Assembly (NCBI RefSeq): GCF_030013205.1
Contig: NZ_CP122648.1
Strand: one strand, 5' to 3'
Length of the DNA stretch: 64,000 bases
Source of the DNA: Escherichia coli
GTDB taxonomy: Bacteria; Pseudomonadota; Gammaproteobacteria; Enterobacterales; Enterobacteriaceae
A program made the position numbers. Positions 42,001 to 45,000 of the stretch are shown piece by piece; position 1 is the first letter of the stretch, and each line of letters opens with the position of its first letter.

Positions 42001-45000
42001 TACCTTCGGGATTATTGATGCGACTTAAATAACACCATTTAAATGTGATATAAATCACAAATATGGCTGTAAAGAGGGGGCTGTAGATATAAATAAGAAG
42101 CACACGAGTGAATTTTAAATAGGGAAATAGTTTCTCAGTGAACAATTTATTGGTAATCAATCGCGTGCGTTCTGGTTTGAAACAGATTGCAGGTATTGTT
42201 ACGCATAAAATCCATGGGGGGTATTATAATCAAGTAGTTAACAGTAATAACAAAAAATAATTTCCTGAGAAATTAACTCTACATTCTAAAACGGCCAGTT
42301 TTCTGAAATTACCAGAAGACCGAATACATTCATGCCTGAAGAATGGATTAGAAGAAACGAGACGGAAATAGATCTATTTATCCCTGCGGAAATAATTTCT
42401 GCTGAAATTTTTTGCGGCTATTAAAAAGGTCAAACCGTCTGAGTAAATTTTATCCAGTTACAAATAAGCATTACCTCCAGTGTATTGGTAGCTGTTAAGC
42501 CAAGGGCGGTAGCGTACCTGAAGAGATTAGGATCACATCATCAAATGGCAAGAAGTGGATTTGAAGTCCAGAAAGTCACCGTAGAGGCATTATTTCTACG
42601 AGAAATACGAACACGCTTTGGTAAGTTCCGTCTGGGATATTTGTGGGCGATTCTCGAACCCTCTGCGCATTTGCTGATACTGTTGGGCATTTTTGGTTAC
42701 ATTATGCACCGCACGATGCCAGATATCTCATTCCCGGTGTTTTTACTTAATGGCCTGATTCCCTTTTTTATCTTTAGCAGTATCAGCAATCGTTCTGTAG
42801 GTGCTATTGAAGCGAATCAGGGGCTGTTTAATTATCGACCAGTAAAACCCATCGATACGATCATTGCACGCGCACTGCTTGAGACACTGATTTACGTTGC
42901 TGTTTATATATTGCTTATGCTTATCGTCTGGATGGCAGGCGAATATTTCGAAATAACAAACTTTTTACAACTTGTGCTTACCTGGAGTTTGTTAATCATT
43001 CTTTCATGTGGCGTTGGCTTAATATTCATGGTCGTTGGTAAAACCTTCCCTGAAATGCAAAAGGTCCTGCCGATACTGCTTAAGCCGCTGTATTTCATCT
43101 CCTGCATCATGTTCCCTCTACACTCGATTCCGAAGCAATACTGGTCATATCTACTCTGGAATCCATTAGTGCATGTCGTAGAGTTAAGCCGCGAGGCAGT
43201 TATGCCTGGCTATATCAGCGAAGGCGTGAGTCTGAACTACCTGGCAATGTTTACTCTGGTCACCCTGTTCATCAGTCTGGCGTTATACCGAACGCGTGAA
43301 GAGGCAATGCTGACATCATGATTAAGATTGAGAATTTGACGAAGTCCTATCGCACGCCAACGGGTCGACATTATGTCTTTAAGGATTTAAACATCGAAAT
43401 CCCTTCAGGAAAAAGTGTCGCCTTTATTGGTCGCAACGGAGCGGGTAAATCAACGTTACTGAGAATGATTGGCGGCATTGACCGCCCCGACAGTGGAAAG
43501 ATCATCACTAATAAAACAATATCATGGCCAGTCGGCCTTGCAGGTGGATTTCAGGGAAGTTTAACCGGACGCGAAAACGTAAAATTTGTTGCGCGGTTAT
43601 ACGCGAAGCAAGAAGAGCTGAAAGAGAAAATTGAGTTTGTCGAAGAATTTGCCGAACTCGGTAAGTACTTCGATATGCCGATTAAAACTTACTCATCAGG
43701 TATGCGATCTCGTCTGGGCTTTGGTTTAAGCATGGCATTTAAGTTTGATTATTATATCGTCGATGAAGTAACCGCAGTCGGTGATGCCAGGTTTAAAGAA
43801 AAATGCGCTCAATTGTTTAAAGAAAGGCATAAAGAGTCTAGTTTTTTAATGGTTTCACATAGTTTAAATTCATTGAATAAGTTTTGTGATATCGCATTTG
43901 TAATTTCAGAAAATGGACAGTGCAATTTATTTATGGATGTCAACAATGCAATAGAACAATATAAAAAAGATTATTTAAGTTAACAAAAGTAAAACCAATT
44001 ACATATTATTAATAATGTAGGATTATATAAAAAGATATTATTAGAGTTACAATATGTTTATTATATTTACGTGTAAATATGCACATCTACAGATATAGAG
44101 GATATTAGACGGGGAAACCCACATCTATTCTTTAAAGATGCTATACGTAATGATACGCATAGAAAAAACACAAAAATGAATTCCTAATCTTTGTCTTTTA
44201 TTTAAATGACTGGAAACATCCAATTATTGAAAGTTGGTTTCCTAAAAAATTCATTTACGTTCCATTTGAATTTAAAGAACAAGCGACAATTAATCGATAA
44301 AAAAGACAATAAAAATTCCAGGTTGCTTATTTTGGAAATGAACTTACCAGAAGACTTATCTTCACTAAACATAAAAACTGGTGATAACTCCAATTAATAT
44401 AACATATATTTTTCGATAAAAGCACCGATGACTTTTTCATGAAGTTCCACAAAGCGCGAGGAACAGATGGTTTTGCGAGCCAGACGTTTGATTCGGGTTC
44501 TCAGGGTCAGATTGTTGCGCTCAATGCGTTGAGTGAAAATTGTACCAGTCAGATGCTTCTCCTTCGGTAACTCTCTAGTGTAACTACCCCATTCGTCAGT
44601 GATCAACACACCGATGGTAAAAGGGGCAAGCAGCGCCAGCAATTCACGACAGGTTCCATCAGTCCAGGGGCCAAAAGTGTAGGCCAGAACGCCATCAGTT
44701 TTCGTGTTGTACGCGTACCAGAGCCGGTGCTGTCGCCTTTACTGCCGACAAAACTCGATTGCTCATCAGGTTCGCAGATGAGTGCCACATCAGCATGAGC
44801 GACCGGGGATGACGTTATTCTTCGTGGCGAGAGTTTTTTAAAGTCCGGGTGACAGTATTAATGCCGATTTTCAGCATAGGGGCAGTATCGCGAATTCCGA
44901 CACCATTGAAAGCCATTTCAGTGATTTGGTCTTTAACTCCCGGTTTACGGGCCTCGTAACAGTAAGTGAGCTGAAACACCCGGTGACAATCACGGCAGCG

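What the first reader, a model, noticed from the sequence alone, without database searches (positions are those of the whole stretch)
42505..42512. ops element 33 bp upstream of kpsM implies RfaH-dependent read-through into region 2, which must traverse the IS1 copy
GGCGGTAG at 42505-42512 matches the ops core that recruits RfaH in kps region 3 leaders. RfaH-modified elongation normally carries transcription from kpsMT into region 2. Here that path runs antisense through IS1 copy 1, raising the question of whether anti-termination overcomes the IS or whether region 2 is silent.
Basis: partly seen in the sequence, partly recalled or inferred. Interest (0 to 1): 0.4.

Follow-up and report, generated by a model that had tools for sequence, protein, structure and literature searches.

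The report
Capsule-operon ops site before an IS1-bracketed cassette
The motif is the standard RfaH-loading (ops) site of an E. coli group 2 capsule locus, probably K12, and comparative evidence suggests that the type-specific genes behind a broken IS1 copy are still in use, so the finding is real but largely ordinary.

Summary
GGCGGTAG (42505-42512, + strand) lies 34 nt before the kpsM ATG, inside a 39-nt JUMPStart block. That block is almost invariant in five diverse group 2 kps leaders. It is the known kps ops site, not a chance match.

The geometry is also correct. kpsT ends at 43983. A 765-bp IS1 (44380-45144) has insA on the minus strand. The first region-2 gene starts at 45320.

The "silent region 2" option is disfavoured:
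- All 28 complete genomes with this region 2 carry IS1 at this site.
- Across 8 haplotypes, region-2 genes show 13 synonymous and 9 nonsynonymous changes (neutral expectation about 80% nonsynonymous, P about 1e-4).
- Region 1 is intact.
- Gene content fits the serologically defined K12 (=K82) capsule.
- I found no intrinsic terminator on the path.

RfaH-dependent read-through across IS1 is therefore the most likely route (about 0.6). It is inferred, not shown. Weak local promoters cannot be excluded.

New details:
- Region 2 sits between two direct IS1 copies that share a transposase-killing 1-nt deletion and have no target duplications.
- The 8189-bp unit is deleted in 2 genomes, duplicated in 3, and present nine times in one.

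Interest is low to moderate.

The parts
41494..42546 (+). Region 3 leader (yghD stop to kpsM ATG, 1053 bp). It is expected to hold promoter PR3 and the long 5' UTR. PR3 was not pinned down here.
   Evidence: It is conserved over at least 80% of its length in 1549 of 5426 complete genomes. The literature places PR3 741 bp upstream of kpsM. Candidate -10 hexamers GATAAT lie at 41777-41782 and 41834-41839.
42478..42516 (+). 39-nt JUMPStart-like block ending in the 12-nt ops GGCGGTAGCGTA
   Evidence: It is nearly invariant in 5 diverse group 2 leaders.
42505..42512 (+). ops core GGCGGTAG (the finding)
   Evidence: It is on the same strand as kpsM, which is the non-template strand.
42547..43321 (+). 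kpsM (ABC transporter permease, 258 aa)
   Evidence: RefSeq annotation of the identical record.
43318..43983 (+). kpsT (ABC transporter ATPase, 221 aa)
43984..44379 (+). L relic: 396 bp, 26% GC, found only in the 30 genomes with this locus. It holds an ORF (44206-44397) that runs into IS1.
44380..45144 (-). IS1 copy 1, 765 bp. insA is intact and the A6C slippery site is present. The DDE domain is out of frame because of a 1-nt deletion. There is no target-site duplication.
45145..45319 (+). 175-bp spacer (26% GC) between the IS1 IRL end and the first region-2 gene. It holds only weak promoter-like sites.
45320..46354 (+). Region 2 gene 1, a GT-B glycosyltransferase (344 aa; some records start it at GTG 45278)
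   Evidence: Pfam Glyco_trans_1_4; annotation.
46367..47980 (+). Region 2 gene 2, a beta-Kdo transferase (537 aa)
   Evidence: Pfam Capsule_synth plus the Glyco_transf_99 N-terminal domain; RefSeq name.
48025..51156 (+). Region 2 gene 3, 1043 aa with no Pfam match. Some RefSeq records name it AlgX-related O-acetyltransferase.
51283..52320 (+). Region 2 gene 4, a GT-B glycosyltransferase (345 aa)
52569..53333 (-). IS1 copy 2, in direct orientation with copy 1. It differs from copy 1 at 4 internal positions plus the first base and has the same broken insB frame. There is no target-site duplication.
53334..54018 (+). R relic: 685 bp, 28% GC, with a decayed hexapeptide-type acetyltransferase reading frame (family call from reading the translation). 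It is found only in the same 30 genomes.
54019..61921 (-). Region 1, kpsS-C-U-D-E-F. All reading frames are intact, and the region is convergent with regions 3 and 2.
54657..54664 (+). Second GGCGGTAG, antisense inside kpsS. It is judged a chance match.
   Evidence: 1.09 expected per window. In CFT073, 34 of 42 ops-like sites are intragenic and bind no RfaH.

Best explanation
This is the canonical ops/JUMPStart element of a group 2 kps capsule locus, very probably the K12 (=K82) type. RNA polymerase starts at PR3 in the roughly 1-kb leader. It should pause at ops (42505-42516) and load RfaH, as shown for other kps loci. It then transcribes kpsMT and continues for 1336 untranslated nt before reaching the four region-2 genes. 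That stretch consists of an AT-rich relic, a transposition-defective IS1 read antisense, and a 175-bp spacer. The IS1 carries no intrinsic terminator in this direction. The obstacles it adds are Rho acting on untranslated RNA and H-NS on AT-rich DNA, and these are the ones RfaH is known to suppress. Region 2 is therefore expressed rather than silent. Shown here: the motif, its conservation, the geometry, the absence of terminator-like sites, the IS1 defect, and purifying selection on region 2. Inferred: RfaH loading at this site, read-through across IS1, and the K12 identity.
For: The motif and its position are confirmed. JUMPStart and ops are near-invariant across diverse kps loci. The leader is shared by 1549 genomes. 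[quoted passage not shown] RfaH ChIP in CFT073 shows loading at the kps ops and persistence through the transcription unit, and RNAP occupancy collapses downstream in a rfaH deletion mutant. No terminator-like site lies on the + strand between kpsT and region 2, and there is no marked C-rich, G-poor stretch. All 28 genomes with this region 2 have IS1 at the same site. Across 8 such haplotypes there are 13 synonymous and 9 nonsynonymous changes in region 2, against 79.5% nonsynonymous expected, P = 8e-5. The flanking relics diverge about as fast as synonymous sites. Region 1 is intact. The unit is amplified to 2 and 9 copies in some strains. The gene content (two glycosyltransferases, a beta-Kdo transferase, a possible O-acetyltransferase, no rhamnose-synthesis genes) and the link to O139 fit K12, into which K82 was merged. 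There are precedents for an IS on the same path: an IS3 remnant between kpsT and kfiA in K5-type loci, and IS2 in K4, where RfaH overexpression raises capsule yield.
Against: There are no transcript data for this locus. Read-through across IS1 and its dependence on RfaH are inferred. Weak sigma-70-like sites exist on the + strand close to region 2. One is in the spacer (45221-45250). One is a hybrid with its -35 in the IS1 end (45131-45160). One is in the IS1 IRR end reading inward (44381-44410). A preprint proposes an outward promoter for an IS1 in another kps locus. The selection signal rests on 22 substitutions and a uniform mutation model. One strain (ETEC1701) has single-base deletions in two region-2 genes. 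Two genomes have lost region 2. The K12 assignment was not checked against a reference sequence. From my own knowledge of classical genetics, IS1 insertions are polar in both orientations.
Confidence: 0.6

Rival explanations
1. Transcription from PR3 is stopped within the untranslated L-IS1 stretch. Region 2 is expressed mainly from its own start site: a promoter in the 175-bp spacer, a hybrid promoter using a -35 in the IS1 IRL end, or a promoter in the IRR end reading through IS1. The ops site would then matter mainly for kpsMT.
For: Promoter-like sites are TTGAAT-18-CATATT (45221-45250), TTGGAA-18-TATTGT (45131-45160, with its -35 inside IS1) and GTGATA-18-TATATT (44381-44410). A preprint suggests that an IS1 in the KL112 kps locus provides an outward-facing promoter. 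From my own knowledge, IS1 ends can form hybrid promoters and K5 region 2 has internal promoters.
Against: Sites of this strength occur by chance about once per 0.7-1 kb on this strand. The consensus scan found no more promoter-like sites than in shuffled sequence. Transcripts starting downstream of ops would lack RfaH and would cross 7 kb of 33% GC DNA, which is the kind of H-NS-bound DNA where RNAP fails without RfaH. In K5, RfaH-mediated read-through is reported as essential for region 2 expression.
Confidence: 0.22
2. Region 2 is transcriptionally silent or nearly so because of IS1 polarity, and the locus is an inactive remnant.
For: There are 1336 nt of untranslated RNA before region 2. 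IS1 polarity is known (my own knowledge). Two genomes lost region 2 by IS1-IS1 recombination. ETEC1701 has frameshifts in two region-2 genes.
Against: The selection signal is dN/dS of about 0.18 with P about 1e-4, across haplotypes that all carry the IS1. All eight kps genes and all four region-2 genes are intact in the window and in most relatives. The locus, including both IS1 copies, has spread between chromosomal backgrounds that differ by 2% in the adjacent gsp genes. Some strains carry tandem amplification. K12/K82 is a serologically defined capsule, and K12 is among the types most associated with invasive disease.
Confidence: 0.1
3. The GGCGGTAG at 42505 is a chance occurrence without function.
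For: Two copies occur in the window and 1.09 are expected. 30 of 100 shuffles give at least 2.
Against: It sits in the leader, on the non-template strand, 34 nt before kpsM. The surrounding block is conserved base for base in diverse kps loci. The homologous site binds RfaH in CFT073.
Confidence: 0.02

Closest known systems
ops/JUMPStart element of E. coli group 2 kps region 3 (K1, K2, K5), which recruits RfaH
   Same: The 8-nt core and 12-mer GGCGGTAGCGTA are the same. The 39-nt block is the same, the distance to kpsM is the same, and so are the strand and the roughly 1-kb leader. kpsMT is followed by region 2 on the same strand.
   Different: Nothing differs in the element itself. The only difference lies downstream, where a full-length IS1 sits between kpsT and region 2.
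K5 (kfi) and K4 (kfo) capsule loci, which carry IS material inside the RfaH-dependent unit
   Same: An insertion sequence lies on the path from kpsT into or through region 2. K5-type loci have an IS3 fragment between kpsT and kfiA, and K4 has an IS2 in region 2. Both capsules are made and respond to RfaH.
   Different: Here the element is a complete 765-bp IS1 with both ends, read antisense. A second copy follows region 2, so the whole serotype-specific region is bracketed by direct repeats.
K12 (=K82) capsule locus, KL12 / kTYPr K12
   Same: There are four region-2 genes including a beta-Kdo transferase, and no rhamnose-synthesis genes. The locus occurs in O139 pig strains and in human isolates. 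Gene lengths of 1035, 1614, 3132 and 1038 nt match four genes that the published K-locus gene table records as present in one K locus each.
   Different: Identity with the reference K12 sequence could not be tested with these tools. The papers I read do not describe the IS1 pair or copy-number variants for this locus.
IS1-based composite transposon or cointegrate-like structure (for example Tn9)
   Same: Two IS1 copies in direct orientation flank a cargo. The unit is lost or amplified by recombination between the copies.
   Different: There are no target-site duplications around either copy or around the whole unit. Both copies have a broken transposase frame. No plasmid copy of the cargo was found. 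It behaves as a recombination unit, not a demonstrable transposon.

Membership tests
ops element / RfaH-dependent operon leader | 8-nt core GGCGGTAG | tested here: met
   Exact match at 42505-42512.
ops element / RfaH-dependent operon leader | 12-nt consensus GGCGGTAGnnTG (consensus recalled from the literature) | tested here: inconclusive
   The window has GGCGGTAGCGTA, which matches 11 of 12 positions with A at position 12. All five kps leaders compared also end in A, and one has CATA. The deviation is therefore typical of kps.
ops element / RfaH-dependent operon leader | Lies on the non-template strand in a transcribed leader, downstream of the promoter and upstream of the first gene | tested here: met
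   It is on the same strand as kpsM and 34 nt before the ATG. That a promoter lies upstream is inferred from homology with K5/K1 leaders and was not mapped here.
ops element / RfaH-dependent operon leader | Embedded in the conserved 39-nt JUMPStart block | tested here: met
   42478-42516 is conserved in all five loci aligned.
ops element / RfaH-dependent operon leader | RfaH binding, and RfaH-dependent distal gene expression | not testable with these tools
   This has been shown for the homologous site in CFT073 and K5 but not for this strain.
Group 2 kps capsule locus | kpsFEDUCS (region 1) and kpsMT (region 3) flank a serotype-specific region 2, and regions 3 and 2 are convergent with region 1 | tested here: met
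   Annotation of the identical RefSeq record and the ORF map. The locus lies next to the gsp/yghD genes, as in other group 2 loci.
IS1 family insertion sequence | About 768 bp with terminal inverted repeats | tested here: met
   765 bp. The ends are GGTGATAACTCCAATTA... and GGCAATGCTTCCAATTA....
IS1 family insertion sequence | insA, an A6C slippery site, and an insB' frame that together give the InsAB' transposase | tested here: not met
   The InsA domains are intact and A6C is present. The DDE_Tnp_IS1 domain (profile positions 19-131) lies in a third frame, because a 1-nt deletion separates it from the frame reached by the programmed shift. This is an IS1-family element with a dead transposase.
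IS1 family insertion sequence | Target-site duplication of 8-9 bp | tested here: not met
   No matching flanks were found for either copy, or across the pair.
Active composite transposon | Two functional IS copies flank the cargo, with a duplication at the outer ends | tested here: not met
   The direct repeats are present, but there is no outer duplication and no functional transposase.
K12 (=K82) capsule type | Region 2 encodes what a Rha-Rha-Kdo, O-acetylated polymer needs, and lacks rhamnose-synthesis genes | tested here: met
   Region 2 has two GT-B transferases, one beta-Kdo transferase and one large protein named AlgX-related O-acetyltransferase in some records. It has no rml genes. The published description of K12 matches. 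The exact repeat-unit structure is from my own knowledge.
K12 (=K82) capsule type | Sequence identity to the K12 reference locus, or a K12 serological reaction | not testable with these tools
   The reference assemblies (ERZ24115694, GCA_977946375) are not in the searchable collections.

The most novel reading that the evidence does not exclude
The IS1-bracketed region 2 works as a recombination-driven capsule switch and dosage dial. Recombination between the two dead IS1 copies removes the serotype genes (capsule off) or multiplies them. RfaH-loaded polymerase from the single ops site would read through one IS1 after another, so copy number would set glycosyltransferase dosage. The nine-copy array, mostly carrying an IS5-damaged gene 4, would then be amplification selected to compensate for a weakened enzyme. 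It would also be a natural test of how far one RfaH loading event can carry transcription (about 80 kb).
Probability: 0.2. Interest if true: 0.55.

Novelty: new member of a known kind. Interest (0 to 1): 0.3.

Why it matters
The ops site itself adds nothing new. It is the textbook RfaH entry point of group 2 capsule operons.

The useful part is the setting. A capsule type linked to pig edema-disease strains and to invasive human isolates keeps its serotype-specific genes behind a full-length, antisense, dead IS1, and still shows purifying selection on them. That makes the locus a convenient natural test of whether RfaH antitermination neutralises IS polarity.

The direct IS1 repeats also give a simple route to capsule loss and gene amplification. 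This matters for capsule typing, for vaccines, and for phage or antibody approaches that target K antigens.

Tried and rejected
- **Second GGCGGTAG (54657).** I asked whether it could be a reloading site. It is antisense inside kpsS and at chance frequency, so I rejected it.
- **Target-site duplications.** I looked around each IS1 and across the pair, to tell independent insertions from a composite transposon or cointegrate. None was found.
- **Third IS1 in O139:H1 strains.** The two BLAST pieces suggested an extra copy. It was only IS1 copy 2 joined to the match.
- **Plasmid source of the cassette.** No match in the plasmid collection.
- **Rho-utilisation-like bias in the antisense IS1 transcript.** The C/G ratio reaches only 1.0-1.2 inside the IS1 body, and the higher values in the AT-poor flanks come with low C content, so the result is uninformative.
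- **Intrinsic terminators.** Both the tool scan and a more permissive hairpin-plus-T scan found only weak candidates. These were no different from those inside coding genes.
- **Mapping PR3 exactly.** Only candidate -10 hexamers were found. The K5 promoter paper (PMC2648368) and the 1986 K12 cloning paper (PMC213626) are not held.
- **Locus name from accession numbers.** I searched for the accession numbers in the supplements of PMC13171598 and found none.
- **Literature on IS1 polarity and Rho.** The full-text search returned nothing usable, so that point rests on my own knowledge.
- **Terminator-like hairpin at 42386-42402, upstream of ops.** Its T-run is not conserved in other leaders, so I did not count it as a feature.
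Full report
**What the window is**

The stretch 41500-52500 is 100% identical to the chromosome of porcine E. coli strain ETEC6333. It is nearly identical to 27 other complete genomes from pigs, including O139:H1 edema-disease strains, and from humans.

The RefSeq annotation of the identical record gives this order:
- gspC-M/yghD (+)
- a 1053-bp leader
- kpsM 42547-43321 and kpsT 43318-43983 (+)
- an IS1-family transposase (-)
- four + strand genes: a glycosyltransferase, a beta-Kdo transferase, a 1043-aa protein and a second glycosyltransferase
- a second IS1-family transposase (-)
- kpsS-C-U-D-E-F (-)

This is a standard group 2 kps capsule locus with regions 3, 2 and 1.

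**The observation**

GGCGGTAG is at 42505-42512 on the + strand. It ends 34 nt before the kpsM ATG. The 12-mer GGCGGTAGCGTA ends 30 nt before it.

The 8-mer count alone is not significant: there are 2 in the window and 1.09 are expected. Context settles the matter. The motif closes a 39-nt JUMPStart-like block (42478-42516). That block and everything down to the ATG are almost base-for-base identical in five group 2 loci with unrelated region 2 contents. The whole leader is shared by 1549 of 5426 complete genomes.

The second GGCGGTAG (54657) is antisense inside kpsS. In CFT073, 34 of 42 ops-like sites are intragenic and bind no RfaH, so I treat it as chance.

Published work supports the function of the homologous site:
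- A review places PR3 741 bp and ops about 28 bp upstream of kpsM. It calls RfaH-mediated read-through from PR3 essential for region 2 expression.
- ChIP-seq in CFT073 shows RfaH loading at the kps ops and staying on through the unit. RNAP is lost downstream in a rfaH deletion mutant, and H-NS filaments are the obstacle that RfaH overcomes.

**The path into region 2**

After the kpsT stop (43983) come three segments:
- 396 bp of 26% GC sequence that exists only in genomes with this locus (the L relic)
- IS1 copy 1 (44380-45144, 765 bp), with insA on the minus strand
- a 175-bp spacer of 26% GC

The first region-2 gene starts at 45320.

I found no intrinsic-terminator-like site on the + strand along this path. 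Neither the tool's scan nor a more permissive hairpin-plus-T scan found one; the weak candidates resemble those inside kpsM, kpsT and region-2 genes. The antisense IS1 transcript has no marked C-rich, G-poor stretch.

What the insertion adds is a long untranslated stretch flanked by AT-rich DNA. That makes a substrate for Rho and H-NS, which are the obstacles RfaH is reported to suppress. Classical work on IS1 polarity and its relief by rho mutations or antitermination is my own recollection. My literature searches did not retrieve it.

**The IS1 copies**

The two copies (44380-45144 and 52569-53333) lie in direct orientation. They differ at four internal positions plus the first base, and neither has a target-site duplication, alone or as a pair.

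insA is intact and the A6C slippery site is present. However, the DDE_Tnp_IS1 domain lies in a third reading frame. A 1-nt deletion separates it from the frame reached by the programmed shift, so InsAB' cannot be made. Both copies share this defect. They are fixed relics rather than active elements.

**Is region 2 silent?**

Several lines argue that it is not.

1. The L and R flanks occur in only 30 of 5426 complete genomes. All 28 genomes that have region 2 have IS1 at the same junctions. The IS1 arrangement therefore predates their divergence.
2. I aligned eight haplotypes (the window, an O139:H1 boar strain, UPEC132, ETEC1701, CFSAN018748, GMF054, LR-31 and S1-IND-02-A). Region-2 coding sequence has 13 synonymous and 9 nonsynonymous substitutions. 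Random single-base changes would be 79.5% nonsynonymous (binomial P = 8e-5), so dN/dS is about 0.18. The L, R and spacer segments diverge at about 1%, like synonymous sites. A transition bias would soften this P value but not remove the signal.
3. All eight kps genes are intact.
4. Between the window and UPEC132, the adjacent gsp genes differ by 2.0% while the kps locus differs by 0-0.5%. The locus, including both IS1 copies, has therefore moved between chromosomal backgrounds.
5. The gene content fits the K12 polysaccharide: two GT-B transferases, a beta-Kdo transferase (Capsule_synth plus the GT99 N-terminal domain), a large protein that some records call an AlgX-related O-acetyltransferase, and no rhamnose-synthesis genes.
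   - A typing study describes K12 as Kdo- and rhamnose-containing, lacking rml genes in its kps cluster, and found only with rhamnose-containing O types. The preprint version lists O139 among these O types, and the study ranks K12 among the types most associated with invasive disease.
   - K82, the classical K antigen of O139 pig strains (my own knowledge), was merged into K12.
   - The kTYPr K12 locus has 12 genes, which fits 8 kps genes plus 4.
   - The gene table of a second typing study lists four genes of exactly 1035, 1038, 1614 ("Beta-Kdo transferase") and 3132 nt, each recorded as present in one K locus.
   - I could not compare with the reference sequence, so I put the K12 identity at about 0.85.

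**Precedents**

IS elements occur in 28% of distinct K-locus sequences, and every K5 locus has at least one. In K5-type loci an IS3 fragment lies between kpsT and kfiA, which is on the read-through path. K4 has an IS2 in region 2, and its capsule yield rises with RfaH overexpression.

**Alternatives**

Weak sigma-70-like sites lie on the + strand near region 2:
- 45221-45250, in the spacer
- 45131-45160, with its -35 in the IS1 end
- 44381-44410, in the IRR end reading inward

Sites this good occur about once per 0.7-1 kb on this strand. A preprint proposes an outward promoter for an IS1 in another kps locus.

I cannot exclude a contribution from such starts. However, transcripts that begin downstream of ops would lack RfaH across 7 kb of 33% GC DNA.

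My estimates are:
- 0.6 for RfaH read-through across IS1 as the main route
- about 0.2 for a local promoter as the main route
- about 0.1 for silence

**What else turned up**

The 8189-bp unit of IS1 plus region 2 behaves as a recombination unit.
- Two genomes (WP5-S18-ESBL-08 and CP095086) have L, one IS1 of exactly 765 bp, and R, with region 2 gone.
- Three related Japanese pig isolates have the unit twice.
- TUM17543 has nine tandem units and ten IS1 copies. An IS5 sits in the 3' end of gene 4 in seven units and in gene 1 of the first unit. Gene 4 is intact in units 7 and 9.

Amplification of a unit that carries a damaged gene looks like selection for more product. This is inference, and the array needs confirmation from reads.

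**Verdict**

The motif is real, and it is the known kps ops site. The open question is answered in part: region 2 is very probably in use, and read-through across a dead IS1 is the likely route, though this is not demonstrated.

Novelty is low for the element. It is modest for the IS1-bracketed, copy-number-variable cassette.

Noticed in passing
window 44380-53333; L002 (NZ_AP022161.1); NZ_CP095086.1 804663-806509: Two complete genomes have the L and R flanks separated by exactly one 765-bp IS1. Region 2 has been removed, as expected from recombination between the two direct IS1 copies. kpsMT and kpsS stay intact.
   Followed up: yes
L003 (NZ_AP027440.1 EC556; also AP027436, AP027432): The 8189-bp unit of IS1 plus region 2 is tandemly duplicated (IS1-R2-IS1-R2-IS1) in three related Japanese pig isolates.
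   Followed up: yes
L005, L016, L017 (NZ_CP135643.1 TUM17543, 806710-888169): There are nine tandem region-2 units with ten IS1 copies. An IS5 sits in the 3' end of gene 4 in seven units and in gene 1 of the first unit. Gene 4 is intact in units 7 and 9. This may be amplification under selection, or partly an assembly estimate.
   Followed up: partly
window about 44733-44740 (IS1 copy 1) and the matching site in copy 2: Both IS1 copies share a 1-nt deletion that puts the DDE transposase domain out of the frame reached by the programmed A6C shift. Neither copy can make InsAB'.
   Followed up: yes
window 43984-44379 and 53334-54018: AT-rich flanks outside the IS1 pair occur only in this locus type. 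L holds an ORF (44206-44397) that runs into IS1. R holds a decayed hexapeptide-type acetyltransferase frame, by my reading of the translation, with stops and shifts. They look like the two ends of an older region 2 on the + strand.
   Followed up: partly
window 38500-55209 versus L010 (UPEC132): The gsp genes differ by 2.0%, but the kps locus from the leader onward differs by only 0-0.5%. The whole locus, with both IS1 copies, has been exchanged between chromosomal backgrounds.
   Followed up: partly
window 44529, 44535, 44849, 44905: The window's IS1 copy 1 differs from its copy 2 at these four sites. In UPEC132, copy 1 carries the window's copy 2 bases at all four sites, and its copy 2 is identical to the window's. 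This suggests gene conversion between copies or with IS1 copies elsewhere.
   Followed up: no
L011 (ETEC1701), equivalent to window 45933 and 50337: Single-base deletions split region-2 genes 1 and 3 in this strain only. This is either real decay or homopolymer sequencing error.
   Followed up: no
window 54657-54664: A second exact GGCGGTAG lies on the + strand, antisense inside kpsS. It is at chance frequency.
   Followed up: partly
window 42386-42410: A terminator-like hairpin plus T-run lies in the 5' UTR about 100 nt upstream of ops. The stem is largely conserved in other kps leaders, but the T-run is interrupted in three of the four others, so it is probably not a terminator.
   Followed up: partly
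window 52321-54018, + strand: No intrinsic terminator follows region 2. Transcription from PR3 could run through IS1 copy 2 and the R relic into the antisense strand of kpsS.
   Followed up: no
window about 62732-62914: An IS110-family transposase fragment is annotated beyond kpsF. It marks another IS scar at the edge of the locus.
   Followed up: no
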